This document shows positions 10,909-27,682 of a DNA stretch of 64,000 nucleotides, in pieces (positions within the stretch are counted from its first letter, which is position 1; every line of letters begins with the position of its first letter). The DNA lies in the NCBI GenBank assembly GCA_037200965.1, contig JBBCGK010000001.1, positions 32,001 through 96,000 on the forward strand, given 5' to 3'. Made by a program: the position numbers and the translations under genes. The notes beneath the pieces are model-generated. The model made no database searches and had not been told where the DNA came from. It saw only the letters and a program-made list of their open reading frames with translations. Source of the DNA: a bacterium (GTDB lineage: Bacteria; Patescibacteriota; Minisyncoccia; Phycocordibacterales; Phycocordibacteraceae).

Positions 10909-10984
10909 GGGCCGTTAGCTCAGTTGGTAGAGCACCTCATTTGCAATGAGGGGGTCGCAGGTTCGAATCCTGTACGGTCCACCA
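10909..10984 (+). tRNA. tRNA-Ala (anticodon UGC), CCA encoded
   Basis: GGGCCGTTAGCTCAGTTGGTAGAGC...TTTGCAA anticodon loop...GGTTCGAATCC...GGTCCACCA. G3:U70 Ala identity pair. Confidence 0.85.
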
Positions 10985-12515
10985 AATCTGATTTTTCAGC
11001 AACAACCTGCTGATTTATCTCGTAAATCCAACCTAATTTCGCGGTTCCAAAACCTGTATTTTTATCGTATCTAATTCCTTCGGGAAGGACGAGTTTTTGG
11101 AACCGCTTTTGGGCGTCTACCCCGATGCTGCTCCATGTGCGGGGCAGGTCTGAAATAAACGTGGTAGCGTAGGCTATTGCTGCTTCTATGTCGAGCTTAT
11201 CGAGGTTGTTTTCTCGAATGGTGATTTGCTTTGCGGCAATCTCATTGTCGGTCTTCTCGATAATCTCCTTGCCGAAGTCCTCGCTGACCGTGCCTTTGCG
11301 AATCATCTCTGCGTACTCGAACTTCTTTTGGCGCAGCTCCTCAAGTTCGGTTTGCTGCTGCTTGATAATATCGTCGAGTAATGAGGCATTGCTGCGCCAT
11401 ACTTCTACGACAATCTCGCTGAACAGCGCGAGGAACCCTTGCTTTGGAGTGATAGTGCCAAGCCATGCAAGAAAGTCTGTGTGCATCTTTTCTTGCGAAA
11501 TGTTCTTGGCATACATGGGGCACTGCTTATTGTGGCAATGGTAGTAAGAATAAACGCCGCCGTTGCCGCGCGGATGACTGCCACTCAACCCGATACTGCA
11601 AGCGGCGCAGCGTACGTCCCTTGTGAGCGGGAAATCGGGGTGATTCTTGAGCTTCTTGATGACCTTCGGAACCTTTCCTTTGCGGATAAGCTGTACCTGG
11701 ATAAACTCCTCGGGCGTAATCATCGCCTGGTGCTTACCCTCGACTTCTTTGCCCGTGAACGGATTGAGGATGATGCCCGCATAGAACTTATTGGAAAGAA
11801 TCTCGTCAATCTTCTGCGGATAGATTTTGCGGCCTCGCAGCGTCGTGAGACCCCATTGGTTTGCGAGCTTTGCCAGCTCGACGTTGCCACTCACTTTCTT
11901 CTCAAGACAGGCACGGAAAAGCGCCTGAATTATCGGGAAGCGCTTTGGGTCTGGGTCATCGGCTTCCGTCTTTTTCATGCCGCGCCTCTTGAATTGCTTG
12001 CAGGTATAGCCAAGCGGCGACTTCCAGGGATAGATACCCTGATTTATCTTCTCGCTCATACCATCAGAGCACTGCTGCTTCCTGATAGCGTTCTCATAGT
12101 CCGCTGATGCGGCCGCAACCGTCTCGACTAGTTTCTCAATCGGCTTATTGCCGATAGGTTCGGTAACGGAAAGAAGTGTCGTCCCATAACCGGACAACTT
12201 CTTTCTTATAAAGAAATGGTCTTCTGTGCTGCGAGAAAATCTGTTGACACGAAGCACTAGGAACGCATGAATCTGGCCGTTGTGCTTGCGGCAGAACTCG
12301 ATGGCTCTCAAGAACTCTTTTCGATTATTGAGCGATAGGTCTTTTGCTGATTGCCCTTCCTCTCGGAATACTTCGACGACTTCATAGCTGTTGCGCTCGC
12401 AATACCTCCTGCACTCTGCCTCCTGAAACTCCAAGCTCGTACCGTCAACCTGCTCGTCGGATGAGACGCGCACGTAGATGATTGCTTTTCTTGTTGTGGA
12501 AGTTTTCATGCTCAT
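10920..12515 (-). CDS. large serine recombinase (resolvase domain, recombinase domain, zinc ribbon)
   Basis: N-terminus KAIIYVRVSSDEQ carries the catalytic Ser motif. Zinc ribbon CAACS...YYHCHNKQC. The open frame reads through the 3' half of tRNA-Ala on the opposite strand (C-terminus TGFEPATP), which is typical of tRNA-integrating elements. Confidence 0.85.
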   Translation of the reverse strand: MSMKTSTTRKAIIYVRVSSDEQVDGTSLEFQEAECRRYCERNSYEVVEVFREEGQSAKDLSLNNRKEFLRAIEFCRKHNGQIHAFLVLRVNRFSRSTEDHFFIRKKLSGYGTTLLSVTEPIGNKPIEKLVETVAAASADYENAIRKQQCSDGMSEKINQGIYPWKSPLGYTCKQFKRRGMKKTEADDPDPKRFPIIQALFRACLEKKVSGNVELAKLANQWGLTTLRGRKIYPQKIDEILSNKFYAGIILNPFTGKEVEGKHQAMITPEEFIQVQLIRKGKVPKVIKKLKNHPDFPLTRDVRCAACSIGLSGSHPRGNGGVYSYYHCHNKQCPMYAKNISQEKMHTDFLAWLGTITPKQGFLALFSEIVVEVWRSNASLLDDIIKQQQTELEELRQKKFEYAEMIRKGTVSEDFGKEIIEKTDNEIAAKQITIRENNLDKLDIEAAIAYATTFISDLPRTWSSIGVDAQKRFQKLVLPEGIRYDKNTGFGTAKLGWIYEINQQVVAEKSDLVDRTGFEPATPSLQMRCSTN

Positions 12516-12520
12516 GTGTT

Positions 12521-13417
12521 TTATGTTAGGCGGTTCACTGCATCGCGGAGACCAGCATCGCTGACGTGCAGATAGCGGCTCGTGGTCTCCAGCTTTGAGT
12601 GGCCGAGAAGATTCTTGATAGCAAAGAGGTCAACACCGTTGGTCAAAAGCGAAACACTGAACGTATGACGCAGCGAGTGAACACCTACGTGCTCCTTCTT
12701 GATACCTGCTTTCTTGATGTAGTGCTTGATAAGGTGGTATACGCTGCCGGTGCTCAATCCATTGCCAAGCCGACTGATAAAGAGATATGGCACATCGGTC
12801 TCCGGCCGCTTTTCGAGATGCTTGCGCAATACCTCGACTACCACGCAGTTGAGCGGGATAGTGCGTTCTTTATCTCCCTTACCGCGCACCTTGATGGTGG
12901 GCTGCGCCGAATCAAGACTGACGCTGGTGAGCTTGAGCCCTACCAACTCGGAGAGACGGACACCCGTATTGAGGAATGTGATGACAATGGCGAGGTCGCG
13001 TGCAAGGTAAAACGGTGTTGCGGTGCGCTTTACGGCAGCAATCAGCGCTTCGTATTCTTCTTTGGTCAAATAGCTCGGCTCCTTGTGCGGTAGCTTCGGA
13101 GTCTCAACTTCGGCGGCAGGATTTATCGTAAGAGCATCAAACTGCACCAGGTATTTGAAAAAGGATTTTATTGAGGAGAGCTTGCGGGCGCGGGTTACGG
13201 CGCTGTTCGGCTTCTTGATGCCGTTATGCGTGAGTTCCGAGAGGAAGGCGCGGACATCATCACGCGATACTTTCTTGATATTGCTTTTGCCGCGCGACTC
13301 CAAAAACTCGGTGAACTTTTCCAAGTCAAGTCGATATGCAGCCATCGTACGCACCGATGCGTTTTTGTCGCTGTGAAGGTAATTGATGAATTGTGAGATA
13401 TAATTCTGCATAATCAT
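12521..13417 (-). CDS. tyrosine recombinase/integrase (XerC/XerD-like)
   Basis: 298 aa. N-terminal SAM-like domain, catalytic HSLRHTF and LGHSKLETTSRYLH (R-H-R-Y). It lies 5 nt upstream of the serine recombinase. Confidence 0.85.
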   Translation of the reverse strand: MIMQNYISQFINYLHSDKNASVRTMAAYRLDLEKFTEFLESRGKSNIKKVSRDDVRAFLSELTHNGIKKPNSAVTRARKLSSIKSFFKYLVQFDALTINPAAEVETPKLPHKEPSYLTKEEYEALIAAVKRTATPFYLARDLAIVITFLNTGVRLSELVGLKLTSVSLDSAQPTIKVRGKGDKERTIPLNCVVVEVLRKHLEKRPETDVPYLFISRLGNGLSTGSVYHLIKHYIKKAGIKKEHVGVHSLRHTFSVSLLTNGVDLFAIKNLLGHSKLETTSRYLHVSDAGLRDAVNRLT

Positions 13418-13737
13418 TTTTGAGGCGGAAACTGCTCGACAAGAGCTGCGGGCAAGCGTTCGACCAACTCCTTCCGTACCAAAAGCGCATCTTCATCACC
13501 GCGCGAATCAACGCCAAGCGTAATGCTCGTGCCGAAGCAGTGCACGCCACGCTGATTTATGCAGACGAATCCTGCGGCGAGCGCTAATGCTGGCGACTCG
13601 ACCACGCTGCTGTGCAATATTTCACTGTCGAACACGAGAGCTTTCCCTGCGGTAGTGACGACGTACTTCATGGGGATGCGTCCAGCGATGAAGTCCTCCC
13701 ATTCTTTTGTTTTTGATGTGTCGTATTCCATAGTCAT
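13414..13737 (-). CDS. hypothetical protein (107 aa), island operon
   Basis: Overlaps the integrase start and the upstream gene's stop by 4 nt each (coupled). No recognisable motif. Confidence 0.4.
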   Translation of the reverse strand: MTMEYDTSKTKEWEDFIAGRIPMKYVVTTAGKALVFDSEILHSSVVESPALALAAGFVCINQRGVHCFGTSITLGVDSRGDEDALLVRKELVERLPAALVEQFPPQK

Positions 13738-14000
13738 TTCTTGGGTAGCTTGCTATCGAGGTACAAGCCGGTGAGTCCTACGAGAGCAATGATGAGCGCC
13801 GCAAGCCATTCTTGGTCGAATCCCGATAGAAGCTCATCGAGATGCAGCCAGAGGAAGACAATCGCTCCGATGATGAACAGTGCTTTGCCCGTGTTCCAAA
13901 CTTCTCGCCAGGTTATCTTCGACCTTGTAGGGATACCGGCATCGGCCGTATTTTCCGCTAGCTTTTGCGTCCGTTTTCCAATGTGATTTTCGTTGCTCAT
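13734..14000 (-). CDS. small membrane protein (2 TM), hypothetical
   Basis: 88 aa. Hydrophobic segments LFIIGAIVFLWL and LAALIIALVGLTGLYL. Confidence 0.4.
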   Translation of the reverse strand: MSNENHIGKRTQKLAENTADAGIPTRSKITWREVWNTGKALFIIGAIVFLWLHLDELLSGFDQEWLAALIIALVGLTGLYLDSKLPKK

Positions 14001-14188
14001 AAAATATTTTTGCTATTGCTGATAAATGCTTCGTACTCCTCACGTCGAATGAGCCATTTATTTCCAATGCGAAAGAAGCCTGGGATTTTTCCGGCTTCAA
14101 TCCATCGAAGTACCGTTGCGCGCGATACGTTCAAATCGGCAGCGACTTCAGATACATTTATCGTTTTACTTTGGATTTCTTCGCTCAT
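13997..14188 (-). CDS. excisionase/AlpA-family HTH DNA-binding protein
   Basis: 63 aa. LNVSRATVLRWIEAGKIPGFFRIGNKWLIRREE is a classic Xis/MerR-like winged-helix. First gene of the recombinase operon. Confidence 0.6.
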   Translation of the reverse strand: MSEEIQSKTINVSEVAADLNVSRATVLRWIEAGKIPGFFRIGNKWLIRREEYEAFISNSKNIL

Positions 14189-14245
14189 AACATTTAGTAG
14201 ATATTTACTTCGATACGATGATTCGTTTGTACGTGTTTGTTATCC

Positions 14246-14275
14246 ACTTGACCTGCAACACGCACTTGGTATGAT
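14246..14275 (+). promoter_or_regulatory. sigma70-like promoter TTGACC-16 nt-TATGAT
   Basis: TTGACCTGCAACACGCACTTGGTATGAT. It faces away from the excisionase gene. A short hairpin-T terminator lies about 70 nt downstream (14346-14365). Confidence 0.35.
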
Positions 14276-14593
14276 TTACTTGTAGTCGGATGCTGCTATT
14301 TGCATCATTTGAACGGCTGCTAATATCTATTTAGTGCCATTGCCCCGTGAGGGGTCTTTTTCGTTCTAGGCTTTCCATGTTGCTGCTCTGTTTCTTTCCA
14401 CGGGTATGGCACCTCACTTCCTCTCAATGACCTCTGCAAGTGGTGCATGGGTATGCAAGTGTCATAAAGAATGAACTCGCAGGGGTGTCATCTACTCCAT
14501 GCCCGCCGGATTCTGTGAAAACAAAAATCCGGTGGTGGTAGTTGTCGGTTTGTCCCTCGCACTGTGGGCGGGGACACCCTCACCATGTGGAAG

Positions 14594-14857
14594 TTATTTT
14601 GTCGAAACTTCCTTCTTGGGATTCAGGTAGCCCTCGACAATTTCATCAAGCAGCTCTGACATTGCCATTTCTTCTTCTGCTGCTCGCAGCTTCAACTTTT
14701 GTGCGTTTGATACTGACATACGAACTTGCCGTGTAATGCGCTTTTTACGTGCTTGCCAGCCACGCTTCATCGCATTACTCATCTGCTGCTGATAGTGCTG
14801 GTGCATTGCATCCTCTATTTGCTTCGTGAAATCTATTTTTTGTACCTTTGTCGACAT
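14594..14857 (-). CDS. ribbon-helix-helix-like small DNA-binding protein, hypothetical
   Basis: 87 aa. KKRITRQVRMSVSNAQKLKLRAAEEEMAMSELLDEIVEGYL fits a beta-strand plus two-helix RHH pattern. Confidence 0.35.
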   Translation of the reverse strand: MSTKVQKIDFTKQIEDAMHQHYQQQMSNAMKRGWQARKKRITRQVRMSVSNAQKLKLRAAEEEMAMSELLDEIVEGYLNPKKEVSTK

Positions 14858-15177: not shown

Positions 15178-15390
15178 CTACGCCTGCATTTCGGCTGGCG
15201 CGGGCAGCGTACTCACAAAGGGTGATGGCATTGCCTTGTCCTTTGCAGATACGAGACCTTTCTTTTGCCAACTATCAAATGCGAGATTTGCAGCGATGTA
15301 GAGTTCATCACGGACAGCCTCAACAGCCTCATCGGAGAGGAGGTTTGCTTCGTTGCCTAGAACTTTTTTGCATTGCGCGATGCTCAACAT
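15178..15390 (-). CDS. hypothetical small protein (70 aa)
   Basis: ORF only. Sits in an AT-rich island intergenic region. Confidence 0.2.
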   Translation of the reverse strand: MLSIAQCKKVLGNEANLLSDEAVEAVRDELYIAANLAFDSWQKKGLVSAKDKAMPSPFVSTLPAPAEMQA

Positions 15391-15767: not shown

Positions 15768-15968
15768 ATGGCTTCAAAGGACAAAAACTACCTGACGATT
15801 CAAGAAGTCGCCAAAAAATTGGAGGAGCGGCACTTCGACATCACCGAGCGAACGGTGTATCGCTATGTCCAAAAAGGAAAGATACGGGCAATCAAAATCG
15901 GCGGCTGGCGTATCGAGAAAAAAGATTTTGAAAAGTTCCTCGAAGAAAGCTCAAACACCAAGAAATAA
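15768..15968 (+). CDS. excisionase-family HTH protein, first gene of the R-M operon (possible controller)
   Basis: MASKDKNYLTIQEVAKKLEERHFDITERTVYRYVQKGKIRAIKIGGWRIEKKDFEKFLEE. Its stop codon lies 4 nt before the mod ATG. The upstream region is palindrome-rich. Confidence 0.55.
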   Translation: MASKDKNYLTIQEVAKKLEERHFDITERTVYRYVQKGKIRAIKIGGWRIEKKDFEKFLEESSNTKK

Positions 15969-15972
15969 TTTT

Positions 15973-17769
15973 ATGAAGAACCAGCCAACAAAAGTAAATC
16001 TCGCCTCCGCAAATCTCTCCGAGGAGAAGCTGTTTGAGTTGCGGCGTATCCTTCCCGAAGCGTTCAGCGAAAACAAAATTGACTGGGAGAAGCTCCGCAC
16101 GGTTCTTGGCGACGCGGTGGATGCTCATATCGAGAAGTTCGGCTTTACCTGGGCGGGCAAGGGCAACGCCATCAAGAATGTTTTGATACCGAGCAAGGCC
16201 ACGCTCAACCCCGCTCCCGACGAGAGTGTGATGTTCGACGAGAGCCAGAATCTTTTTATCGAGGGCGACAACCTCGAAGTCTTGAAGCTTTTGCAAAAGG
16301 CGTACTTTGAGAAGGTGAAGATGATTTATATAGACCCGCCGTACAACACCGGCGGCGACTTCGTGTACAAGGACAACTTTACCGCACCGCTTGATAACTA
16401 CCTCCATCAGACCGGCCAGAAGAACGGCAACGGCGAGCATCTCACGACAAACAAGGAAACCAACGGCCGCTTCCACAGCGATTGGCTCTCAATGATGTAT
16501 CCGCGTCTCAAGCTCGCGTGGAATCTTTTGCGCGACGACGGCGTTATCTTCATCAGCATTGATGATAACGAGGTGCATCATCTCCGCATATTGCTAAATG
16601 AAGTGTTTGGCGAAGAAAACTTTATTGGTGAGTTTATCGTCGTACGTGCAGAAGGGGGTGGTTTAGCACATCAGTATGTGAAAGGACATGATTATCTGCT
16701 TGCATACGCAAAGTCTATTACAGACTTTGAACCACTCCGTCGCCCGAAAGATATTAGAGGCAAAATTATTGAGAAAGACGGCAAGGAATACTGGATAGAA
16801 GAAGACTGGCTCCGCCGAGAGTTCGGTAAGTACGGCACTCTCCTATACGAAGACATTGAGGAAGTGAAGGGGGCTAACAAGAAAGCGGAAATTGACGCTG
16901 GTTTGCAGAGCGGAGAGTATCAACTGATAAAGAAAAATGGCGGCCATATTGTTGGTCGACTTCGCCTAATTGAAGAAGATGGCTCCAAGTTCTACAGCAT
17001 CCTCAAACATCTTTCTGCGAGGGGAAACGATGATTTGCAGGAATTGGAAATGGGCAAACTCTTTGACTTTCCAAAGCCGGTATCTTTGCTGCGCGAACTC
17101 ATTTTGGGAGCCACGTTCTTTAGTAAGAATGACGGCGATATTATTCTCGACTTTTTCGCTGGCTCTGGTACCACGGCTCATGCTGTAATGGCACAAAATG
17201 CGGAAGATGGAGGCAATCGAAAGTGGATTGCTGTTCAACTACCGGAGAAGACCGAGAGCGATAGCGAAGCGTTCAAAGCCGGATACAAAACTATTGCCGA
17301 CCTTACTAAAGAACGTATACGCCGCGCCGCAAAGAAGCTAGAAAATACTGATGGCTTCAAAATCTTCAAGCTCGCAGCATCAAACTACCCCGAGAACGCT
17401 TTTGAGTTCGACCCAGATAAAACAGAAGACGAGAACAAAGCCGCCTTCGAGGACTACTTGAAGCACGCAAAGCGCGCCAAGCTTATTGACGACCTAGACG
17501 AGACGAGCGTCATCTACGAAAACATCGTCAAGGAAGGATTCTCGCTCAACTCCAAGATTCAGGAAGGCGTGCCAGGAAACAACAAGGTCTACACCATCAC
17601 CGACGGCGACCGGCAGTTTTCTATCTGCCTCGACCGTTCGATTGATGACACGACCGTAAAGAACATCACGGAGTGGGCTAAAGGAGCGACCTTTATCTGC
17701 TTCGATAATGCGCTCTCTGACAGCCAGAAAGCAAACCTCGGCCTCCACGTGGAGCTGAAAACGATATAA
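15973..17769 (+). CDS. mod: Type III restriction-modification Mod subunit (N6-adenine DNA methyltransferase)
   Basis: Motif IV IDPPYNTGGDF precedes motif I DFFAGSGTTAHA (beta-class order). ATG at 15973. The track ORF starts earlier in an overlapping frame. Confidence 0.9.
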   Translation: MKNQPTKVNLASANLSEEKLFELRRILPEAFSENKIDWEKLRTVLGDAVDAHIEKFGFTWAGKGNAIKNVLIPSKATLNPAPDESVMFDESQNLFIEGDNLEVLKLLQKAYFEKVKMIYIDPPYNTGGDFVYKDNFTAPLDNYLHQTGQKNGNGEHLTTNKETNGRFHSDWLSMMYPRLKLAWNLLRDDGVIFISIDDNEVHHLRILLNEVFGEENFIGEFIVVRAEGGGLAHQYVKGHDYLLAYAKSITDFEPLRRPKDIRGKIIEKDGKEYWIEEDWLRREFGKYGTLLYEDIEEVKGANKKAEIDAGLQSGEYQLIKKNGGHIVGRLRLIEEDGSKFYSILKHLSARGNDDLQELEMGKLFDFPKPVSLLRELILGATFFSKNDGDIILDFFAGSGTTAHAVMAQNAEDGGNRKWIAVQLPEKTESDSEAFKAGYKTIADLTKERIRRAAKKLENTDGFKIFKLAASNYPENAFEFDPDKTEDENKAAFEDYLKHAKRAKLIDDLDETSVIYENIVKEGFSLNSKIQEGVPGNNKVYTITDGDRQFSICLDRSIDDTTVKNITEWAKGATFICFDNALSDSQKANLGLHVELKTI

Positions 17770-17771
17770 CT

Positions 17772-20402: not shown

Positions 20403-23400
20403 ACTTCTATGGACTCTTTATCGGGATAGACAGATATGCCTCTCCAAGTATCAACTGGTTGAGTTGTGCAAAGCGTGATGCAGTAGCACTTCATGCGCTC
20501 TTTACTGACACACTTGGCGGCAGCACGAAACTACTTACAGATGAACAAGCCACGCGCCCTACCATTGAAGCGGAGTTTGCAGAACTGGCTAAATGCAAAG
20601 AGGATGACGTGGTAGTCATAACCTTCTCTGGACACGGTACTACTACGCACGAGTTAGTTGTCCATGATGCGGACAGAAGTAATTTGCCAGGCATGTGCAT
20701 CCCGCTTTCAGTTGTAAGCGAGTGGGTTGCAAAAATACCAGCAAAAAAGTTGCTGTTTATCTTGGATTGCTGCTTTTCTGGCGGCATGGGTGCGAAAGCT
20801 CTCCAGGTTGATGTTGTCTCACGTGATATAACTTCAGCCGATGATTTGCTCAAACAACTTTCTGGAGATGGACGGTTGATTTTGACCGCATCGCTTGCCA
20901 CAGAACCTGCTTGGGAGAACCAAAAGCTCGGCCACGGCTTTCTCACATATCATCTGCTGACAGCAATGCAGGGTACCGAAGAAGTGAAAAAGGCAGGTAA
21001 GATTACTGCGTACCGCTTACTTGAATACGTAACGGAAAGAGTGGTAGATGACGCAAAAAAGATTGGTAAAGAGCAACATCCAACTCTCCGCGGCACGATG
21101 GACGGCTCGTTGACGTTTCCTGTATTTACTCCTGGCACGCTATACGCCGCCGCGTTTCCAGAGAGAACAAAAGCAAAAGTTAGTGCAGATATTCAATCGC
21201 TTGAACCCTATGGATTCCCCGAGACCATACTAAAAGCATGGGCGGGTGCGATACCATCGCTCAACCAGTTGCAGATAGACGCTATCAACGACTTCGGGCT
21301 ACTTGATAGTGAGCACTTGGTTGTTTCCGCACCAACATCCTCTGGTAAGACAATGGTTGGTGAACTTGCTGCCATCAGTGGCGCACTGAAACGTCGGAGA
21401 GCACTTTTCTTATTTCCTTTGAAGGCGCTTGTAAATGACAAGCTGCGCCATTTCAATAGCACATACGGTGCGTTTGGTCTGAAAACCATCAAAGCAACTG
21501 GCGAGAGTACAAGCGATGACATGCTCCCTTTGATGCGTGGCCAGTATGATATTTGCTTGATGACGTATGAGAAGTTTTCTGCGCTCGTTCTAGGCTACCC
21601 GCATATCCTTGAGCAAATCGGAACCATTGTAGTTGATGAGGTGCAGATGATTGCCGATGAATCACGTGGAGTGAATCTTGAGTTTATCCTTACACTATTG
21701 AGGATGCGACGTAGAGAAGGAGCTGAACCGCAGCTCATTGCTCTTTCTGCCGTAATTGGTGATACCAACGGACTGGAGCGATGGCTTGGCGGCCGACTGC
21801 TGCGCAGAACAGAGCGTCCCGTGCCACTTGATGAAGGAATTATCAAAGCCGACGGCAGCTTCCGCTATATCGAGTCTGACACTGGAACGGAGAAGACCGA
21901 TACGTCTTATATTATCCCTGAATCACGCAAAGGTTCGAGCCAAGACTTGATTATCCCTCTAGTGCGAAAATTGGTCGGTGAAGGTAAAAGCGTGATTGTA
22001 TTCCGTGAGACACGGGGTGAAGCGCGCGGCTGCGCCCTCTACCTCGCAAGCTCTCTTGGATTGCCGGCCGCACAAGTTGCCCTCGATACATTGCCGAATA
22101 GCGACCCGTCCATCTCATCCAACAAGTTGCGAGAGGCACTTGGAGGCGGTATCGCTTTTCATATATCGGATTTGGATACCGAGGAGCGTCTTGTTGTAGA
22201 GGAACAATTTAGAGCCAGACCTACAGCGCTCAAAGTGATAGCCGCGACCACGACTCTTGCAATGGGAGTGAACACCCCTGCGGAGGCGGTTATCATTGCC
22301 GGTCTCACACATCCAGGAGACCATCCGTATTCAGTTGCAGAGTACAAAAACATCATCGGTCGTGCTGGACGACTTGGCTTCTCGCAGCGTGGCACTTCCT
22401 ACGTTGTCGCAATGAATGGTAGCGATGAACACCACATTTGGAATAGCTACGTTCTTGCATCCCCAGAAGACCTGAACTCCCGCTTTTTGGCAGACCATAC
22501 AGACCCGCGCACATTGATTGTGAGAGTTTTGATAGCTGCTGGTCGTGCGGGTTTGCCAGCACAGCAGATAGTTGAGTTCTTGGAGGAGAGCTTTGGCGTG
22601 TTCCAGCAGAAAGCAATAAACGCTAGCTGGAAATGGGATGAGCAACAGCTTCTGCAAGCTCTCGCTGACTTGAATGCGCACGGATTGGTTGAGAAGGATA
22701 AGGATGATGTATACCACCTCACAGAACTCGGAAAGCTGGCGGGTGTTTCTGGCGTTGAGGTGGAGTCAGTCATTCGAGCTGTGAACGCTTTAAGCGGTCT
22801 GCCGACCACAGACATCAACGACCCTGCACTCATTACGCTCTCGCAAGCAACCGCGGAGCTTGACCAGGTATTATTCCCGATGAATAAGAAAAGCACGCAA
22901 AAAGAACCGCAGGCATGGGCTACTGAAATACGAAATCAAAATGTCCCTACTCAAATAACACAGGAACTTGGGCGCAACACCTCGGATACAACGCAACAAA
23001 CATTGCGCGCTAAAAAAGCAGTAGCAAGTCTACTTTGGATAACTGACCGGCCGCTGAATGAAGTAGAGACAACTATGACACAGTTTGGCGGTGGGCTAGA
23101 TGGTGCCGCTGGTGCAATTCGTGGTGTTGCTGCACGAACGTGTGATGTGCTGCCTACGATTGCTCGCATTGCCGAACTGCTGAATCCTGGTTTTGATTTG
23201 AGCAATCGAGTATCACGACTGTTGATACGGCTTGAGATTGGCGTACCGGCCGCTGGTGTTGAACTCGGCTCTCGCATCGGCAGAATACTTACTCGTGGTG
23301 ATTATCTCAACCTTCTCAAAGCAGGCATCTCTACTGCTGAACAATTTGAGACAGCAGACGAGAAAGTCCTTTTGTCGTGCCTCGGAGACAGCACCGATAA

Positions 23401-23491
23401 ACTTGAACAAGCAAAGCTCGCATTAGAAAACACCTCACAGGAAGAACCTGCTCCGATGATGCCACCGATTTTACCAGCCTATGAAGGATAA
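20399..23491 (+). CDS. caspase-like peptidase C14 domain fused to a Hel308/Ski2-like DExH helicase (1030 aa)
   Basis: The N-terminal ~240 aa has a caspase fold, with the His in VVITFSGHG (H79) and the Cys in LFILDCCFSGG (C124/125). SF2 helicase motifs follow: I APTSSGKT, Ia FPLKALVNDK, II VVDEVQMIAD, III SAV, VI IGRAGRLG. The C-terminus has winged-helix and HhH-like regions (Hel308 domains 4-5). The ATG overlaps the res stop (ATGA). Confidence 0.8.
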   Translation: MNFYGLFIGIDRYASPSINWLSCAKRDAVALHALFTDTLGGSTKLLTDEQATRPTIEAEFAELAKCKEDDVVVITFSGHGTTTHELVVHDADRSNLPGMCIPLSVVSEWVAKIPAKKLLFILDCCFSGGMGAKALQVDVVSRDITSADDLLKQLSGDGRLILTASLATEPAWENQKLGHGFLTYHLLTAMQGTEEVKKAGKITAYRLLEYVTERVVDDAKKIGKEQHPTLRGTMDGSLTFPVFTPGTLYAAAFPERTKAKVSADIQSLEPYGFPETILKAWAGAIPSLNQLQIDAINDFGLLDSEHLVVSAPTSSGKTMVGELAAISGALKRRRALFLFPLKALVNDKLRHFNSTYGAFGLKTIKATGESTSDDMLPLMRGQYDICLMTYEKFSALVLGYPHILEQIGTIVVDEVQMIADESRGVNLEFILTLLRMRRREGAEPQLIALSAVIGDTNGLERWLGGRLLRRTERPVPLDEGIIKADGSFRYIESDTGTEKTDTSYIIPESRKGSSQDLIIPLVRKLVGEGKSVIVFRETRGEARGCALYLASSLGLPAAQVALDTLPNSDPSISSNKLREALGGGIAFHISDLDTEERLVVEEQFRARPTALKVIAATTTLAMGVNTPAEAVIIAGLTHPGDHPYSVAEYKNIIGRAGRLGFSQRGTSYVVAMNGSDEHHIWNSYVLASPEDLNSRFLADHTDPRTLIVRVLIAAGRAGLPAQQIVEFLEESFGVFQQKAINASWKWDEQQLLQALADLNAHGLVEKDKDDVYHLTELGKLAGVSGVEVESVIRAVNALSGLPTTDINDPALITLSQATAELDQVLFPMNKKSTQKEPQAWATEIRNQNVPTQITQELGRNTSDTTQQTLRAKKAVASLLWITDRPLNEVETTMTQFGGGLDGAAGAIRGVAARTCDVLPTIARIAELLNPGFDLSNRVSRLLIRLEIGVPAAGVELGSRIGRILTRGDYLNLLKAGISTAEQFETADEKVLLSCLGDSTDKLEQAKLALENTSQEEPAPMMPPILPAYEG

Positions 23492-24320
23492 AAATATGAT
23501 GAAAAAACGAACAGCAGTAATACTCATCGTCGTCGCTATCGTGGCAACATACGCTGTCATCATGTGGGCGTATTACGGAGACCCTTCATGGTCTAGCAGC
23601 AGCGACACCGCAAGCAGCACCGAGATACCGGCAGACTGCAACGTGCTCGCGTTCAACCTCAACGGAGAGATAGCAACATACCTGCCGCAAGATAGTATCA
23701 GTGAGACCGATTCCGTCTCATCGGCCGATATTCTCGATGGTCTCAAGCTGGCGAAGGAGAACCCGCAAATAAAGGCGGTGCTGCTTTCGGTTGATTCCGG
23801 CGGCGGGAGCGTCGTAGCCGGTGAGGAGATAGCCAACGGCTTCAAGGCGCTCGGCAAGCCCTCTGCGGCGGTTATCCGCGACCTGGGAGCTTCTGCCGCA
23901 TACTGGGCGGCTACCGGCGCAGGCAGGATATTTGCCTCGAAGGTGTCGGATGTGGGTAGTATCGGCATCACCGCCTCATACCTCGACAATACCGTTGCGA
24001 ACGCAAAGGACGGTCTCACGCCCGTGGCAATCGTCTCTGCGCCGTATAAGAACGAGGGCGACCCCGACTTTCCGCTCACGGCAGCAGGCAAGGCGGACAT
24101 ACTCGCATCTATCAAGAAAGACCATGAGGTTTTCGTGGACGAAGTTGCAGCAAACCGGAAGCTCGACCGCAGCAAGGTAGCAGCGCTTGCAGATGGCCGA
24201 ACGTATGTTGGCACCGACGCCGTGGACAACGGACTGATTGACGGCATCGGCAGCATTCCCGAAGCGACCGACTATCTTACTCAACAGATTGGTGAGTCTG
24301 CGCAGGTGTGCTGGTACTAA
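23481..24320 (+). CDS. membrane-anchored S49 family serine peptidase (SppA-like, ClpP fold)
   Basis: N-terminal TM (TAVILIVVAIVATYAVIMWAYY). S49 core LLSVDSGGGSVVAGEEI, catalytic Ser in DLGASAAYWAATGA and a Lys region downstream. The start overlaps the upstream gene's stop by 11 nt. Confidence 0.75.
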   Translation: MKDKNMMKKRTAVILIVVAIVATYAVIMWAYYGDPSWSSSSDTASSTEIPADCNVLAFNLNGEIATYLPQDSISETDSVSSADILDGLKLAKENPQIKAVLLSVDSGGGSVVAGEEIANGFKALGKPSAAVIRDLGASAAYWAATGAGRIFASKVSDVGSIGITASYLDNTVANAKDGLTPVAIVSAPYKNEGDPDFPLTAAGKADILASIKKDHEVFVDEVAANRKLDRSKVAALADGRTYVGTDAVDNGLIDGIGSIPEATDYLTQQIGESAQVCWY

Positions 24321-24972
24321 CCGACGCGCGCAGCATCGTCATATCTTTCTCGCTCATTTTTCCGGCCATCGCCCGATTGAGAATGTTCATCATAAAAGTT
24401 GCCGTCTCGCGCTTGTCGGCGTTTGATTTGATATTCAGAGACTCCTTGCTGTGCGCAGCGCGCATCACATAGTTGAACACGTTTAGCACGTAGTTGCGGC
24501 GCTTCACGATGATGTCATCGTCGTAGCTGCTTTCATCGTCCTGGTCGCGCTTGAGAATATCCATCGCATCGTTGAGCAGCTCGCCTGCAAGGGTGCTCGC
24601 GCCCATCTCTAGCGTCTGCGCATCCGGCACGATGGCGGCATTTTGCTCATCCCGCACCTTGATGATTTGCCGCAGCTCCCGCTGCTCCTGCTTGTAGCCC
24701 TGCTCGGCGAGCAGCTCCGCGTCCCACTTCTTGCGCCACAGGCGATATTGCTTCTCCCAGGGAAAGAAGGTAAACGGGGCGATGGACTTGTTGAAATCGT
24801 TGATGATACGGATGGCGCTGCGGTCTGGTTCCTTGCGGCGCTCGGCCAGGTAGAAGGCGCGGAAGGACGGGAGAAGCTCCCGAAGCTCACCGACCCTCTG
24901 GTATTTGCCGTCAAAGCCCTCGTAGAAGGAGAAGATGGGCTTGGTATCGTTTTGTGGTGTTGATGTGTCCAT
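24277..24972 (-). CDS. hypothetical protein (about 231 aa, start taken at MDTSTPQ)
   Basis: Minus-strand ORF convergent with the S49 gene (43-nt 3' overlap). No recognisable domain. Track ORF 24277..25080. Confidence 0.4.
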   Translation of the reverse strand: MDTSTPQNDTKPIFSFYEGFDGKYQRVGELRELLPSFRAFYLAERRKEPDRSAIRIINDFNKSIAPFTFFPWEKQYRLWRKKWDAELLAEQGYKQEQRELRQIIKVRDEQNAAIVPDAQTLEMGASTLAGELLNDAMDILKRDQDDESSYDDDIIVKRRNYVLNVFNYVMRAAHSKESLNIKSNADKRETATFMMNILNRAMAGKMSEKDMTMLRASVSTSTPAQTHQSVE

Positions 24973-24988
24973 AGGGGCTATAATGAGG

Positions 24989-26554
24989 CTATATCGCAGC
25001 GTGCTGGGGCTGGAGAATGGCTTGCCACTCCTGCAATCCTTCAAGGACTTGGTTCCAGTTCGCGCGGATGTAGTCCACATCGTCGGAGTTGGTGGTAGCT
25101 AACTCCTCAAACAGCCTGGTTTTACTTAGCTTATTTCCGGTTCTATAACCCTCATTTTTGGCATACTCCAATTTGCGCTCAAAGAGGAAGAAAAAGAGCC
25201 GGTGCTGACCATGCACATCGAACAAATCCCAAGTAGATACGGGGCTTTTTAGCATTCCCATACTCTTATCAAGGGCGGTTCTATAAGGTATTCCTAAGTC
25301 CTTGCTGATGAGGGTCGTGCCCTCCATTTTCTCAAGCTCGCGTGCGCTGTCTTCTATCTGAGCTTCATACGTGCGCACTACAGCCTCAGAATTGGCCTTA
25401 CGCGCCATCTCTGACAGCTCCTTGAGCTTCTTCTTCAACTCCTCCTTTCGCTGCTCCTGAAGGTAATCCTGCCATTCAAATATTCTTGACTCCTGTGCCC
25501 ATATTTTATCGAACACGCTAGAAGCAACACCAGTAACGGCAGGCTTGAGTCGGTTGCGTGCGAGCACCTTCTTGAAATCATCCTCGACATCCTTCTTCCG
25601 AAGGGTCTTGAAGTAGAGCTCACACTTCCTGTTCTGGCAGAAGTAGTATTCGTACTTCTTCTTGCTGCGGCTCGTTGATGGAGCTGCTGAAAGATGGCCA
25701 TCACATAGGGCGCAGGTAATGAGGCCACGCAGTGGGAATTGGTCTGAGGTGTCTTTGCGAGGCTTGGCCTTTGCTTCGTCCTTTCCAAGCCGTGCCTGAA
25801 TGCGAAGGAAGGTGTCAGGTTTAATAAGACCTGTGTGCTGTCCGTCTCTTCGAGACACGCCCCAGGGGAGGTATTCAATGAATCCTGCAAAGAAAGGGTC
25901 TTCAAGCATTCCTGAAACATGGTCTAAGCATCGAACAGGCTCCTTACCAGCCCACATACCTCGCTCCACCATAAAGTTGGCGACATCAATCTTTCTTGGC
26001 AAATTGCCGCTCGCGAATCCTTCAAGAGCAGGCTTGATTACCTCGTAGCCAAGCTTATTCGGCTGCGCAACCTTTCCACGGCCAAGAATGAACACCATGT
26101 CATACCCGCGCTTCTTACTGAATGGCCAGTAGCCTGCGAGCAGCCGAGCTTCCATCTTGTTGATTACCTGTTCCGCGTTCTGCTCACGGTCGAGTTCAGC
26201 CTGCGCTGCGAGTACACGCTCAACGAATCTTCCCGAAGGGGAGTCCTCGAAGTTGAAGTTAAGGCAGAGCGGAATAATGTCGCACTCAGTGAACGCTTCC
26301 ATCAGCGCCATATGAAACTTCAGGTCGCGTGCAAAGCGTTTGAGGTCGTCGAAGACAACAACGAACTTCTTATCGCGGTTTGCACGAACATACGCCAATA
26401 ACTCTCGCATGCTTGGACGGCGCATGAAGTCGCCACCTCCTGTGTACGTGTCTATGAAGGACCGGTCATAGGGTATACCAAGCTCTGTAAGTCGAATCTT
26501 GCATCGCGTCTCCTGACTTGATTGGCCACTGCCATTCAGCTCCTGGCTCGAGTT
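24989..26554 (-). pseudogene. large serine recombinase, N-terminally truncated (catalytic serine segment missing)
   Basis: Zinc ribbon CALCDGH...YYFCQNRKC, recombinase domain and coiled coil are present. The frame is open upstream only to a stop at 26555-26557. The upstream part (…SGQSSQETRCKIRLTELGIPYDRSFIDTYTGGGDF) lacks the Y-x-R-x-S-x-x-x-Q nucleophile motif and has no start codon. Confidence 0.6.
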
Positions 26555-26894
26555 TTAAATATTTTAAGGATCTAGACGCCTTTAGAAAATATGCACGGAA
26601 TATTGAAAGCATTGATCGTATTGATAAAGAACTTGAGGATAAAGTAGAAAAAGTAACCAAAGAGATAAAAGCTCGAGTTAAGCAGCAGCATCCTGATATG
26701 TAATTGAATCTTGATATGAATTTTTACGACAAATACATCCTCCCTAAATACCTCAATTGGACGATGAGAAAGAAGGATTTCGCGGTGATGTGATTCACCA
26801 CAATAAACCGTCCAGGGCTGGCACGAAGACGAGCAATCGTCCGAATGCCAGCCCTTTCCCATTTCTGATAGAATATCACTCAACCAACTCCAAT

Positions 26895-27311
26895 ATGACA
26901 ATTGTTGAAAAAGTTAAAGAACTTAACTTGCCGTTCGGACAATACGTCGTTATCGGGAGCGGCCTCTTGGAAGCTCTCGGTATCCGCAAAGCGCAGGATA
27001 TCGATGTTGCCGTCCTGCCCAACCTGTATGACCGGTTGCGCGCGAGCGGGGAATGGGGAGAGGAAGAGAAATACGGCAAGATCTTTCTCGTGCGGGAAGG
27101 CATCGAGATAAGTCCGAAGACTTCCTGGGATGAATACACGACCACTACGGAGGAAGCCATAGCTTCGGCGATGATAATCGACGGCGTTCCCTTTATGAGC
27201 CCTAAGGAGCTTATAAAATTTAAGACGGCTATGGGGCGCGAGCTGGATTTCAGGGATATCGATTTATTGAACGAGTATCTCGAGAAGCATAGGGATCAGG
27301 AGCCTTCATAG
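26895..27311 (+). CDS. minimal nucleotidyltransferase-fold protein (possible antibiotic or TA-type NTase)
   Basis: GQYVVIGSGLLEALGIRKAQDIDVAV is a GS...DxD nucleotidyltransferase motif. It lies just right of an AT-rich segment. Confidence 0.4.
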   Translation: MTIVEKVKELNLPFGQYVVIGSGLLEALGIRKAQDIDVAVLPNLYDRLRASGEWGEEEKYGKIFLVREGIEISPKTSWDEYTTTTEEAIASAMIIDGVPFMSPKELIKFKTAMGRELDFRDIDLLNEYLEKHRDQEPS

Positions 27312-27384
27312 GCGGTCTTTCTCCGAGGAAGAATATGCGGTAGTATTGCCATAGGCAGCAGCGTATTGTGCCAAGGAGGCGCAC

Positions 27385-27627: not shown

Positions 27628-27636
27628 AAAAGCAGG

Positions 27637-27665: not shown

Positions 27666-27682
27666 TCGCGTTCGAGCTCCAC

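What the first reader, a model, noticed from the sequence alone, without database searches (positions are those of the whole stretch)
10909..26900. Roughly 16-kb integrative island at tRNA-Ala(UGC) with lower GC than the flanks
The large serine recombinase gene starts immediately 3' of tRNA-Ala, and its reading frame even runs through the tRNA 3' half. It is followed by a tyrosine integrase, small coupled genes and an excisionase-type HTH protein. Codon composition through 11-27 kb is visibly more AT-rich than in the flanking uvr and atp genes; for example the mod gene is full of AAA/GAA/ATT codons. The island ends near a truncated second recombinase and a strongly AT-rich 350-bp stretch (26555-26900). 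I could not find a direct repeat of the tRNA 3' end to define attR, so the right boundary is approximate.
Basis: partly seen in the sequence, partly recalled or inferred. Interest (0 to 1): 0.6.

Follow-up and report, generated by a model that had tools for sequence, protein, structure and literature searches.

The report
Serine-recombinase island splitting its own gene
A 14-kb mobile island carrying phage-defence genes sits at the end of a tRNA-Ala gene in a Patescibacteria genome; it was inserted by a serine recombinase whose crossover site lies inside its own gene, so integration swaps the enzyme's last 27 amino acids for a peptide read from the antisense strand of the tRNA.

Summary
tRNA-Ala(UGC) lies at 10909-10984. 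A large serine recombinase ORF (LSR1, 10920-12515, minus strand) ends inside it. GC falls from 0.58-0.59 to about 0.51, and no repeat of the tRNA 3' end exists.

The boundaries and the mechanism need revising. The foreign DNA is two things:
- An intact 14,096-bp island (10983-25078).
- A decayed remnant of an older element (25079 to about 27311) that begins with an N-truncated LSR2.

The island is bounded by a 6-bp core, GTCCAC, which is the tRNA's discriminator and first C of CCA. This core lies inside the LSR reading frame, at the codons V-D.

Integration replaced LSR1's native tail (YIRANWNQVLEGLQEWQAILQPQHAAI) with 18 tRNA-antisense-encoded residues. The native tail now sits at the far end of the island, fused in frame to LSR2.

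A sister island in another genome has the same backbone but a Type I instead of a Type III R-M cargo. It carries an 81%-identical orphan tail, and homology to the window stops exactly at 25078.

The pattern is family-wide. In 42 of 77 metagenomic loci the LSR 3' end overlaps an antisense tRNA. Twenty-two keep the native tail, 14 have orphan tails 8-11 kb upstream, and one locus is a circular contig.

I found no description of this in the papers searched. Whether the tail swap controls directionality is an inference, not a result.

The parts
10909..10984 (+). tRNA-Ala(UGC), the integration target. It is intact. Its last two bases (CA of CCA, 10983-10984) are supplied by the island.
   Evidence: ARAGORN. 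Island-free relatives mostly end ..GGTCCAC|A without an encoded CCA. The window and L088 end GGTCCAC|CAAATCTGATTTTTCAGCAACAA.
10977..10982 (.). attL core GTCCAC: last acceptor-stem bases, discriminator A and C74 of the tRNA. On the minus strand it reads GTGGAC, the codons V-D of LSR1.
   Evidence: Sequence. The same core is shared by attL/attR pairs in other loci. The only bases common to all pairs are G-T of the Val codon, which is A73-C74 of the tRNA.
10920..12515 (-). LSR1, a large serine recombinase in its integrated form (531 aa). The body is 10983-12515. The last 18 residues (RTGFEPATPSLQMRCSTN) are encoded by the antisense strand of the tRNA.
   Evidence: Pfam Resolvase 1.2e-25 and Recombinase 7e-9. 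Catalytic R16/S18 and four Cys are invariant in the family. There are at least 389 homologues, and their tails fall into classes.
12521..13417 (-). Xer-like tyrosine recombinase (298 aa), 5 nt upstream of LSR1. It is a backbone gene of the Patescibacteria sub-clade only.
   Evidence: Pfam Phage_integrase 1.5e-36. NCBIfam XerC 237 bits, below the cut-off of 335. Present at 52-68% identity in L088/L174, L094 and L095, and at 23-34% identity in four other loci (L142, L139, L156, L149), 8 loci in all; no match in the remaining loci.
13414..14000 (-). Two translationally coupled small ORFs (105 and 88 aa) at the head of the s88-s105-Tyr-LSR1 operon. Function unknown.
   Evidence: No family hits.
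14594..14806 (-). 70-aa ribbon-helix-helix (Arc-like) protein, a probable regulator.
   Evidence: Weak matches only: RHH_10 3.6e-4; PHROG Arc-like repressor 0.005.
15178..15390 (-). u70, a 70-aa helical protein. It is the most widely conserved companion of this LSR family and a candidate directionality factor or regulator.
   Evidence: tblastn hits in 23 LSR loci, on the LSR strand and usually just upstream of the LSR. No Pfam family.
15768..15968 (+). 66-aa HTH_17/excisionase-family DNA-binding protein directly upstream of mod.
   Evidence: Pfam HTH_17 1.8e-14. TIGR01764 'excise' 39.2 bits, above its cut-off. MADS1-like 32.9 bits, below its cut-off.
15973..20402 (+). Cargo: Type III restriction-modification system. 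Mod is 15973-17769 and Res is 17772-20402.
   Evidence: PADLOC MTase_III 547 bits and REase_III 799 bits. Pfam N6_N4_Mtase, ResIII and RE_endonuc. NCBIfam type III endonuclease.
20399..23491 (+). Cargo: fusion of a caspase-like peptidase C14 and a Hel308/Ski2-like helicase (1030 aa). Its start overlaps the res stop. It is a candidate single-gene defence module.
   Evidence: Pfam Peptidase_C14, DEAD and Helicase_C. PADLOC HamB-like and 'caspase'. NCBIfam Hel308-like and caspase_w_EACC1. It stands alone in other genomes.
23481..24320 (+). Membrane-anchored S49/SppA-like peptidase. It is a backbone gene of the island rather than cargo.
   Evidence: Pfam Peptidase_S49 2e-28. A 54-58%-identical homologue sits in the same position after HsdR in the sister island L174.
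24277..24972 (-). u231, a backbone protein of unknown function. In the circular form it would lie immediately downstream of the LSR tail.
   Evidence: 75% identical to the 236-aa protein at the same position in L174. No family hits.
24989..25072 (-). Native C-terminal tail of LSR1 (YIRANWNQVLEGLQEWQAILQPQHAAI plus stop). Integration separated it from LSR1, and it is now fused in frame to LSR2.
   Evidence: This is the only tail-HMM hit in the window, E 8.6e-11. It is 22/27 identical to the ORPHAN tail of the sister island L174. Rejoining it to the LSR1 body is in frame and gives 540 aa. It is predicted to be a helix.
25073..25078 (.). attR core GTCCAC, the right end of the island.
   Evidence: Sequence. 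blastn homology to L174 ends at window 25078. Homology of LSR2 to tRNA-joined LSR2-like remnants in relatives ends at the same residue.
25079..26554 (-). LSR2 body, the remnant of an older element that had integrated at the same tRNA-Ala. It is 5'-truncated, with no start codon before 26425 and no catalytic-serine strand, so it is inactive.
   Evidence: Pfam Resolvase match starts at profile position 48. Alignment with the L005 recombinase. LSR2-like genes in L056, L008 and L010 end ..NVD|RTGFEPATLSLQMRCSTN at the same tRNA.
26555..27311 (.). Remainder of the low-GC DNA: a 346-bp AT-rich stretch (GC 0.38) and a 138-aa ORF (26895-27311, +). It is probably a leftover of the older element. Its right boundary is undetermined, set only by the GC shift at about 27312.
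   Evidence: GC values. The ORF matches phrog_12854 at 4e-8. There is no homologue at this position in relatives, and no second tail or core junction was found.

Best explanation
The window comes from a Patescibacteria (Parcubacteria/Kaiserbacteria-like) chromosome. Between ddl/tRNA-Ala(UGC) and yceG it carries two successive insertions at one tRNA.

**First insertion.** An LSR2-type element integrated at the 3' end of tRNA-Ala and later decayed.

**Second insertion.** The present 14,096-bp island (10983-25078) then integrated at the same core, between the tRNA and LSR2.

**Shown (from sequence comparison)**
- The island's integrase is LSR1, a large serine recombinase.
- Its attachment site lies inside its own gene, about 27 codons before the stop.
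- The core GTGGAC encodes V-D and mimics the antisense of the tRNA end GTCCAC(CA).
- Recombination at this core leaves the tRNA intact. It joins the LSR1 body to tRNA-antisense codons, giving 18 new residues. It carries the 27-codon native tail to the other end of the island, where it is now fused in frame to LSR2.
- The backbone is LSR1, a Xer-like recombinase, small DNA-binding proteins, an S49 peptidase, u231 and the tail.
- The middle is exchangeable defence cargo. Here it is an HTH protein, a Type III R-M system and a caspase-helicase fusion.

**Inferred**
- Excision would restore a 540-aa LSR1 with its native tail and an LSR2-tRNA junction.
- The crossover dinucleotide lies at the discriminator/C74 position.
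- The native tail is an amphipathic helix under protein-level selection. It matters for the integrative reaction or its control, so the tail swap biases or marks directionality.
- The small conserved protein u70 is the likeliest accessory factor.

The confidence given applies to the structural account (two insertions, LSR1 as integrase, attachment site inside its gene, tail exchange, boundaries). The functional inference about directionality is rated separately at about 0.3-0.4.
For: **Insertion and composition**
- Relatives show conserved synteny with as little as 0.6-2 kb between the tRNA and yceG; other relatives have up to about 9 kb there, some with recombinase genes or remnants.
- GC is 0.51 in the island against 0.58-0.59 in the flanks.

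**Junction inside the gene**
- LSR1 and LSR2 align up to ..SDLVD / ..SDDVD. They then diverge into a tRNA-antisense peptide and a WNQ tail.
- Both reciprocal rejoinings are in frame.

**Decisive sister island**
- L088/L174 has a 75%-identical LSR at the same tRNA-Ala(UGC), with the same Tyr, S49 and u231 backbone but Type I R-M cargo.
- It ends with an orphan tail ..LVD|YIRVNWNQILEGLQEWQAILQPQYAVV that is 22/27 identical to the window's tail, with no LSR body upstream of it.
- blastn homology with the window ends at 25078.

**LSR2 history**
- LSR2-like genes or remnants in L056, L008 and L010 are joined to the same tRNA at the same residue.

**Family-wide pattern**
- 38 of 120 homologues end in the conserved native tail. 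Most of the rest end in tRNA-antisense peptides after the same KSxLVD junction.
- In 77 metagenomic loci with a complete LSR 3' end, 42 overlap an antisense tRNA: Ala-UGC 21, Glu-CUC 7, Ala-GGC 5, plus Lys, Ala-CGC, Leu, Arg and Tyr. Twenty-two keep the native tail.
- 14 loci have a tail 8.2-11.4 kb upstream on the same strand: 13 are orphan mini-ORFs starting at the junction, and in L133 it is attached to a second LSR body.
- attL/attR pairs share only 4-10 bp at the core.
- L109 is a circular 7,239-bp contig (127-bp terminal overlap) with an intact native-tail LSR.
- L133 is a tandem arrangement like the window.
- L177 shows another LSR ending in tRNA-Ser.

**Selection on the tail**
- Entropy by codon position is 0.90/0.57/1.12 over the tail core. 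Hydrophobic positions keep the second base while the first and third bases vary.
- AlphaFold2 predicts a helix at 519-539.

**Not a phage or a known plasmid family**
- Only 3 weak hits were found in 2.9 M viral contigs.
- Identity to any phage or plasmid record is at most 29%.
Against: - There is no direct evidence that this copy is still mobile. The predicted 540-aa excised-form LSR1 is not in the 15-billion-protein collection. All contigs with identical flanking genes carry the island.
- The 6-bp core alone is not significant. About 30 copies are expected in 64 kb. The boundary rests on homology breakpoints, not on the repeat.
- The older element's own far end and tail were not found. Its history is therefore reconstructed, not observed.
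- No recombination activity, directionality effect or role for the tail has been measured. The structure model is only moderate (pLDDT 75.6, pTM 0.36) and says nothing about what the tail contacts.
- Thirteen loci have neither tail type. Some of them do have orphan tails, so non-tRNA targets also exist.
Confidence: 0.85

Rival explanations
1. One composite island. LSR2's WNQ tail is its own, so LSR2 sits in an unrecombined, attP-like configuration. The element would then run from 10983 to beyond 26554 and carry two serine recombinases, with its true right end near 26.9-27.3 kb.
For: Low GC continues to about 27311. LSR2 plus tail forms one uninterrupted ORF.
Against: The tail is 81% identical to the orphan tail of the LSR1-type sister island, which has no LSR2. 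DNA homology to that island stops at 25078. LSR2 homology to the tRNA-joined LSR2-like genes of relatives stops at the same residue. No second, LSR1-type orphan tail exists to the right of LSR2.
Confidence: 0.06
2. A classical tRNA island. The tyrosine recombinase (12521-13417) integrated the island into the tRNA 3' end, and the attR direct repeat has since decayed or been deleted. The LSR would be a resolvase or invertase passenger, and its overlap with the tRNA would be accidental.
For: Tyrosine integrases are the usual tRNA-targeting enzymes (PMC7192596). An intact Xer-like gene is present.
Against: The tyrosine recombinase is absent from most islands of the family, yet these show the same tRNA junction. 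The junction falls at one conserved codon pair of the LSR in dozens of loci with different tRNAs. Orphan LSR tails mark the far ends. No tRNA repeat exists.
Confidence: 0.03
3. The structure is as described, but the tail swap is functionally neutral. It would be a tolerated by-product of an attachment site that drifted into the end of the gene. The tail's conservation would reflect its double duty as the recombinase-binding arm of attP.
For: The TGGAACCA (W-N-Q) motif lies about 20 bp from the core, where LSR zinc-ribbon domains bind attP arms (own knowledge of the LSR literature). Integrated-form LSRs with very different tRNA-encoded tails all look intact.
Against: Conservation extends to about 60 bp from the core, beyond a typical half-site. 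It also has codon periodicity: the second base is fixed at hydrophobic positions while the first and third vary, and most window-versus-L174 differences in the core are synonymous.
Confidence: 0.4
4. The region is not an insertion. It is an ancestral, compositionally odd part of the chromosome.
For: None beyond its presence in every contig that shares identical flanking genes.
Against: The region is absent from relatives with conserved flanks. The same site in a relative holds different cargo. There is a GC drop of 7-8 points, and recombinases lie at the junctions.
Confidence: 0.01

Closest known systems
Large serine recombinases / serine integrases of phages and integrative elements (phiC31, Bxb1, A118, SPbeta SprA, SCCmec Ccr, XisF)
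   Same: Same domain plan: a resolvase catalytic domain with a serine nucleophile, a recombinase domain, and a zinc ribbon with a long coiled coil. Short att sites with only a few shared core bases and no long direct repeats. The gene sits at one end of the element.
   Different: At most 29% identical to any phage or plasmid record. It targets the extreme 3' end of tRNA genes. A 2020 survey stated that use of a t(m)RNA gene by a serine integrase had not been reported, and found only 14 of 297 candidate cases (PMC7192596). The core lies inside the recombinase ORF, so integration exchanges the C-terminal 27 residues.
SSV-type (self-splitting, 'suicidal') tyrosine integrases of archaeal viruses and plasmids
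   Same: The attachment site lies within the integrase ORF, the target is a tRNA gene, and integration partitions the integrase gene (PMC7253208).
   Different: It is an unrelated enzyme family (serine, not tyrosine) from bacteria, not archaea. Only the last 5% of the protein is detached, and the remaining ORF stays full-length with a new short tail. The enzyme is therefore not obviously inactivated.
Classical tRNA-linked genomic islands with tyrosine integrases
   Same: A low-GC island next to a tRNA gene with the integrase gene at the tRNA-proximal end. The tRNA is kept intact and the cargo is accessory (defence) genes.
   Different: There is no 15-50-nt direct repeat of the tRNA 3' end. The crossover is at the discriminator/CCA position, not in the anticodon or T loop. 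The integrase is a serine recombinase.
Integration-dependent immunity of mycobacteriophages (own knowledge: Broussard et al. 2013)
   Same: attP lies inside a coding region, so integration changes the C-terminus of the encoded protein. This gives integrated and free forms different protein products.
   Different: There the split gene is the repressor, the integrase is a tyrosine recombinase, and the removed tail is a degradation tag. Here the split gene is the recombinase itself, and no function for the tail has been shown.
Mobile restriction-modification / defence islands
   Same: A conserved integration backbone carries interchangeable R-M cargo: Type III here and Type I in L174.
   Different: The host is a reduced-genome Patescibacteria lineage. 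The backbone also includes an S49 peptidase and an unknown 231-aa protein. No transfer or replication genes were recognised.

Membership tests
Large serine recombinase (serine integrase) | N-terminal resolvase-type catalytic domain with the serine nucleophile and conserved arginines | tested here: met
   PF00239 at 1.2e-25 over residues 11-160. R16, S18, R92 and R95 are invariant in a 30-sequence family alignment.
Large serine recombinase (serine integrase) | Large C-terminal part with a recombinase domain and a zinc ribbon interrupted by a coiled coil | tested here: met
   PF07508 at 7e-9. C303, C306, C327 and C332 are invariant. PF13408 is recorded for many homologues. AlphaFold2 predicts long helices at 359-407 and 412-436.
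Large serine recombinase (serine integrase) | Short att sites with a very short shared core and no long direct repeats | tested here: met
   attL/attR pairs share 4-10 bp, and 6 bp in the window. No longer repeat was found.
Large serine recombinase (serine integrase) | Demonstrated attP x attB recombination and RDF-dependent excision | not testable with these tools
   This needs biochemical or genetic assays. The only indirect support is one circular contig from a related element (L109).
Classical tyrosine-integrase tRNA island | Direct repeat of the tRNA 3' segment at the distal end (attR) | tested here: not met
   No repeat above shuffle level in 11.2-29.5 kb. The best non-tRNA score was 23-24, against a shuffle mean of 21.7 and maximum of 29.
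Classical tyrosine-integrase tRNA island | A tyrosine integrase is the element's conserved integrase | tested here: not met
   The Xer-like gene is found only in the closest sub-clade and a few other loci (8 loci). The tRNA junction is tied to the LSR everywhere.
SSV-type self-splitting integrase elements | attP inside the integrase ORF, so that integration partitions the gene | tested here: met
   The junction falls at the V-D codons, 27 codons before the native stop. Orphan tails lie at the far ends of the islands.
SSV-type self-splitting integrase elements | Tyrosine recombinase fold and catalysis | tested here: not met
   The split gene is a serine recombinase.
Prophage | Virion structural, packaging or lysis genes, or relatives among viral contigs | tested here: not met
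   No such Pfam or PHROG hits in the island. Only 3 weak LSR matches in IMG/VR.
Integrative conjugative or mobilizable element | Relaxase, coupling protein, type IV secretion genes or oriT | tested here: not met
   None detected by Pfam or NCBIfam. There is only a marginal NikA-like match, E 0.023, for the 70-aa RHH protein. oriT was not searched.
Type III restriction-modification system (cargo) | Mod methyltransferase plus Res helicase-nuclease in one operon | tested here: met
   PADLOC MTase_III 547 bits and REase_III 799 bits. The genes are 2 nt apart.

The most novel reading that the evidence does not exclude
The C-terminal tail exchange is a built-in directionality or state switch for a large, previously unrecognised family of tRNA-targeting serine integrases. 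In this reading, the free (circular) form makes a recombinase with the WNQ..EWQ helix, which is competent or licensed for integration. The integrated form makes a tail-swapped enzyme with different activity, for example excision-competent with the small u70 partner, or held quiet by convergent tRNA transcription. The same att logic would let recombinase-less mini-cassettes pile up in integron-like arrays, as in L156 and L160.
Probability: 0.3. Interest if true: 0.88.

Novelty: new variant of a known kind. Interest (0 to 1): 0.72.

Why it matters
Serine integrases are prized genome-engineering tools. They are textbook examples of enzymes whose direction is set by a separate accessory protein, and they were thought not to use tRNA genes as targets.

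This window led to a family of at least 389 homologues spread over several uncultivated bacterial phyla, with three unusual properties:
- It integrates at the extreme 3' end of many different tRNA genes.
- It carries its attachment site inside its own coding sequence.
- It therefore makes different proteins in the free and integrated states.

That gives a directly testable hypothesis for self-encoded control of directionality. It also offers a new set of integrases aimed at highly conserved targets.

The finding explains why such islands escape repeat-based island finders. It also shows how reduced-genome Patescibacteria exchange restriction and other defence modules on a compact backbone.

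Tried and rejected
- **Repeat of the tRNA 3' end.** Seeded repeat search and local alignment with a shuffle control found nothing. The LSR mechanism later explained why.
- **Empty-site strain variants.** Exact-protein look-ups with Ddl and YceG found only island-bearing contigs.
- **Second orphan tail or core junction for the older element.** None was found in 26.5-28 kb with the tail HMM at E up to 10 or by GTCCA scans. A faint 'SYWSWLSDILSEM' resemblance at 26.9 kb was judged not convincing.
- **Viral origin.** The IMG/VR scan gave 3 weak hits. Phage and plasmid tblastn gave at most 29% identity.
- **Excised-form protein.** An exact look-up found it absent.
- **Link between the caspase-helicase or S49 peptidase and the Type III system.** Rejected. 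The fusion stands alone elsewhere, and S49 is a backbone gene.
- **MADS membership for the HTH protein.** The match is below the curated cut-off, so it is not claimed.
- **Rfam match for the tRNA-like inverted/direct repeat element downstream of tRNA-Ala in relatives.** None at gathering threshold.
- **Structure model.** It gives only secondary structure and confidence, so what the tail docks onto could not be examined.

Full report
**Observation**

ARAGORN places tRNA-Ala(UGC) at 10909-10984 on the + strand. GC falls from 0.61 to about 0.50 at 11 kb and recovers between 27 and 28 kb. By segment:
- 10983-25078: 0.510
- 25079-26554: 0.506
- 26555-26900: 0.382
- 26895-27311: 0.501
- 27312-27682: 0.577
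- flanks: 0.593 (left) and 0.582 (right)

No 14.1-kb window in the right flank falls below 0.580.

The genes, in order:
- On the minus strand: a 531-aa large serine recombinase (LSR1, 10920-12515), a Xer-like tyrosine recombinase (12521-13417), two coupled small ORFs, a 70-aa RHH protein and a 70-aa unknown protein.
- On the plus strand: an HTH_17/excisionase-type protein, Type III Mod and Res, a 1030-aa caspase-helicase fusion and an S49 peptidase.
- On the minus strand again: a 231-aa unknown protein and a second serine recombinase (LSR2, 24989-26425). The Pfam match of LSR2 starts at profile position 48.

LSR1 is on the minus strand. Its stop codon, not its start, therefore lies in the tRNA, and the ORF overlaps 65 nt of it. 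No repeat of the tRNA 3' end exists.

**Host and synteny**

The Ddl protein finds its best relatives (up to 65% identity) in Parcubacteria/Kaiserbacteria/Paceibacterota MAGs. The source record appears to be a 960-kb contig of GCA_037975565.1.

In these relatives the order uvrA-uvrC-ddl-tRNA-Ala(UGC)...yceG is conserved. The tRNA-yceG distance is as short as 0.6-2 kb in some of them. Other relatives have several kb there, some with recombinase genes or remnants. The window has 16.8 kb between ddl and yceG. The DNA is therefore inserted, and the site is a recurrent target.

**The key lead**

LSR1 has at least 389 homologues at E below 1e-20. Their C-termini fall into classes after a common junction, KSxLVD:
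- 38 of the best 120 continue with a conserved tail, xxRxSWNQIIEELKEWQxL...
- Most of the others continue with peptides such as RTGFEPATPSLQMRCSTN or LRGIEPRPHPCHGRVIPIYYGP. These are antisense translations of tRNA T-arms and acceptor stems.

The codons L-V-D (TTG GTG GAC) are the antisense of the tRNA end GTCCACCAA. LSR2 in the window ends ..SDDVD|YIRANWNQVLEGLQEWQAILQPQHAAI, which is the conserved tail.

This suggested three things. The attachment site lies inside the recombinase gene. Integration swaps the tail. The detached tail should mark the far end of each island.

**Test across the family**

A metagenome scan returned 80 loci. Of the 77 with a complete LSR 3' end:

| Class | Loci |
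|---|---|
| LSR overlaps a tRNA gene on the opposite strand | 42 |
| LSR keeps the native tail | 22 |
| Other tails | 13 |

The targeted tRNAs among the 42 are Ala-UGC (21), Glu-CUC (7), Ala-GGC (5), Lys-UUU (2) and Ala-CGC (2), plus single cases of Leu, Arg, Tyr and others.

Further points from the same scan:
- Fourteen loci with enough upstream DNA carry a tail 8.2-11.4 kb upstream on the LSR strand: 13 are orphan tail mini-ORFs starting at the (L)VD junction, and in L133 it is attached to a second LSR body (tail HMM E from 0.014 down to 1e-14).
- attL and attR share only 4-10 bp. The bases common to all pairs are G-T of the Val codon, corresponding to the discriminator and C74 of the tRNA.
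- L109 is a 7,366-bp contig with an exact 127-bp terminal overlap. It is therefore a 7,239-bp circle, and it encodes an intact native-tail LSR.
- L133 is a tandem arrangement like the window.
- An unrelated look-up turned up another Patescibacteria LSR ending in tRNA-Ser(GGA).

**Test in the window**

The core GTCCAC occurs at 10977-10982 (in the tRNA end) and at 25073-25078 (in the V-D codons of LSR2). A 6-mer alone is not significant, so four other results carry the weight:
1. The tail HMM hits the window only once, at 24992 onward.
2. Both reciprocal rejoinings are in frame. They give a 540-aa LSR1 with the native tail and an LSR2 ending ..DDVD|RTGFEPATPSLQMRCSTN.
3. LSR2-like genes or remnants in relatives L056, L008 and L010 end exactly that way at the same tRNA. 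Their homology to LSR2 stops at the junction residue.
4. The decisive result is the sister island, described next.

The closest LSR on a long contig is P0003, 75% identical, from GCA_964618905.1. It sits at the same tRNA-Ala(UGC) with the same overlapping Tyr-LSR pair. Walking along that contig shows a Type I R-M cargo, followed by the same S49 peptidase (54-58% aa identity) and u231 homologue (75%). It ends with an orphan tail ..GNTLVD|YIRVNWNQILEGLQEWQAILQPQYAVV. That tail is 22/27 identical to the window's tail and has no LSR body upstream of it.

blastn between the two islands gives three blocks. The last is 74% identical and ends at window 25078.

The tail at 24989-25072 therefore belongs to LSR1, and the island is 10983-25078 (14,096 bp). 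LSR2 is the flank: the remnant of an earlier element into whose tRNA junction the present island inserted.

On the left, island-free relatives mostly end GGTCCAC|A... The window and the sister island both continue GGTCCAC|CAAATCTGATTTTTCAGCAACAA.

**State of the older element**

LSR2's reading frame opens at 26554, and its first start codon is at 26425. The strand carrying the conserved arginine and catalytic serine is missing, so LSR2 cannot be active.

The AT-rich 346 bp and a 138-aa ORF (weak PHROG match) follow, and GC returns to host level at about 27312. I found no tail or core junction for this older element. Its right end is therefore unknown.

**Is the tail a protein feature or only a DNA site?**

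I compared 43 distinct tail sequences, 22 attached to an LSR and 21 orphan. Mean entropy by codon position over the conserved core is 0.90/0.57/1.12. At the hydrophobic positions the second base is nearly fixed while the first and third vary. Between the window and L174, changes in the core are mostly synonymous. Conservation also runs to about 60 bp from the core.

This points to selection on the peptide, which AlphaFold2 predicts to be a helix (residues 519-539, pLDDT about 65-78). What the helix does is not shown.

My preferred inference is that it matters for, or regulates, the integrative reaction, so the free and integrated forms differ in activity. The neutral by-product reading remains about as likely.

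**Backbone, cargo and mobility**

- u70 (15178-15390) is the most widely conserved companion of the LSR, found in 23 loci and usually just upstream. It has no known family. It is the best candidate for an accessory or directionality factor.
- The Xer-like recombinase is restricted to the closest sub-clade and a few other loci.
- The cargo differs between sister islands: Type III R-M plus caspase-helicase here, Type I R-M there.
- The caspase-Hel308-like fusion is a stand-alone gene of about 1030 aa. It is at least 59% identical across several phyla and sits in defence-type neighbourhoods.
- No phage, conjugation or replication genes were recognised.
- The family is nearly absent from viral contigs and from sequenced phages and plasmids, at no more than 29% identity.
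- How the island moves between cells is unknown.

**Comparison with what is known**

The enzyme meets the sequence-level definition of a large serine recombinase. A 2020 survey of integrative elements stated that serine integrases were not known to target tRNA genes, and found only 14 candidate cases among 297 (PMC7192596). Further searches of the held literature found no description of tRNA-targeting or self-splitting serine integrases.

The nearest functional analogue is the SSV-type tyrosine integrase of archaea, whose attP lies in its own ORF and which is split on integration (PMC7253208). That is a different enzyme family, and the split there is much more disruptive.

**Limits**

- Nothing here shows that this particular copy still excises. 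The excised-form protein is not in the protein collection.
- All conclusions about recombination are drawn from sequence comparison.

**Verdict**

- The finding leads to a new variant of serine-integrase biology that is worth experimental follow-up.

Noticed in passing
L160 11300-17500 and L156 7600-11800 (metagenome loci, not the window): An array of 4-5 repeated units follows a native-tail LSR, with spacing of 0.96-1.47 kb. Each unit has a conserved block of about 300 nt, an orphan LSR tail/att copy, and one variable ORF on the opposite strand (95-225 aa). It looks like an integron-like cassette array built at the LSR att site.
   Followed up: partly
L023 7370-7560; also L002, L017, L036, L038, L045, L046, L053 just downstream of tRNA-Ala(UGC): Island-free relatives carry a four-part feature after the tRNA: a terminator hairpin, an inverted copy of the tRNA 3' end (GGGCCGTACAGGATTCGAA, reminiscent of a tmRNA 5' end), about 100 nt of GC-rich sequence with lineage-specific hairpin insertions, and a second direct copy of the tRNA 3' end. 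ARAGORN and Rfam (gathering threshold) call nothing there. The window lacks the feature.
   Followed up: partly
window 20399-23491: The caspase-like (C14) and Hel308-like helicase fusion is a stand-alone gene at least 59% identical across Elusimicrobiota, Omnitrophota, Jorgensenbacteria, Proteobacteria and Acidobacteriota. It sits next to other defence-type genes. It matches HamB-like and 'caspase' PADLOC models but no complete known system.
   Followed up: partly
window 23481-24972 and L174 13165-14816: An S49/SppA-like membrane peptidase and a 231-236-aa unknown protein are conserved at the tail end of both sister islands, whatever the cargo. The peptidase start overlaps the last cargo gene in both. 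Their role in the element is unknown.
   Followed up: partly
window 15178-15390: A 70-aa helical protein with no family assignment accompanies this LSR family in 23 loci, usually immediately upstream of the recombinase.
   Followed up: partly
L042 20614-20691 (minus strand): An orphan LSR tail (VD|LNEADWNQIINEIRLLAGLAGQF) is preceded by the GTGGAC core, about 1.4 kb from tRNA-Ala(GGC). ORFs that may be recombinase remnants lie between them. It is probably a decayed mini-island.
   Followed up: no
window 48-1414: An HTH protein and a DDE_Tnp_1 transposase (767-1414) lie at the start of the window, upstream of uvrB. This is an insertion sequence unrelated to the island.
   Followed up: no
window 28801-29423 and 31739-31812: A cluster of tRNA genes (Pro-GGG, Pro-CGG, Ala-CGC, Val-CAC, then Ala-GGC) lies immediately beyond yceG. 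The order and orientation of these tRNAs vary among relatives.
   Followed up: no
window about 38.77-39.2 kb: A PemK-family toxin gene abuts the ATP synthase operon, according to the precomputed gene table of the source contig.
   Followed up: no
L005 and L007 (Parcubacteria C7867-008 and -007): No tRNA-Ala(UGC) is detected after ddl. In L005 an LSR2-like recombinase (40% identical) with a shortened C-terminus lies directly next to ddl. This suggests a deletion that removed the tRNA and the junction.
   Followed up: no
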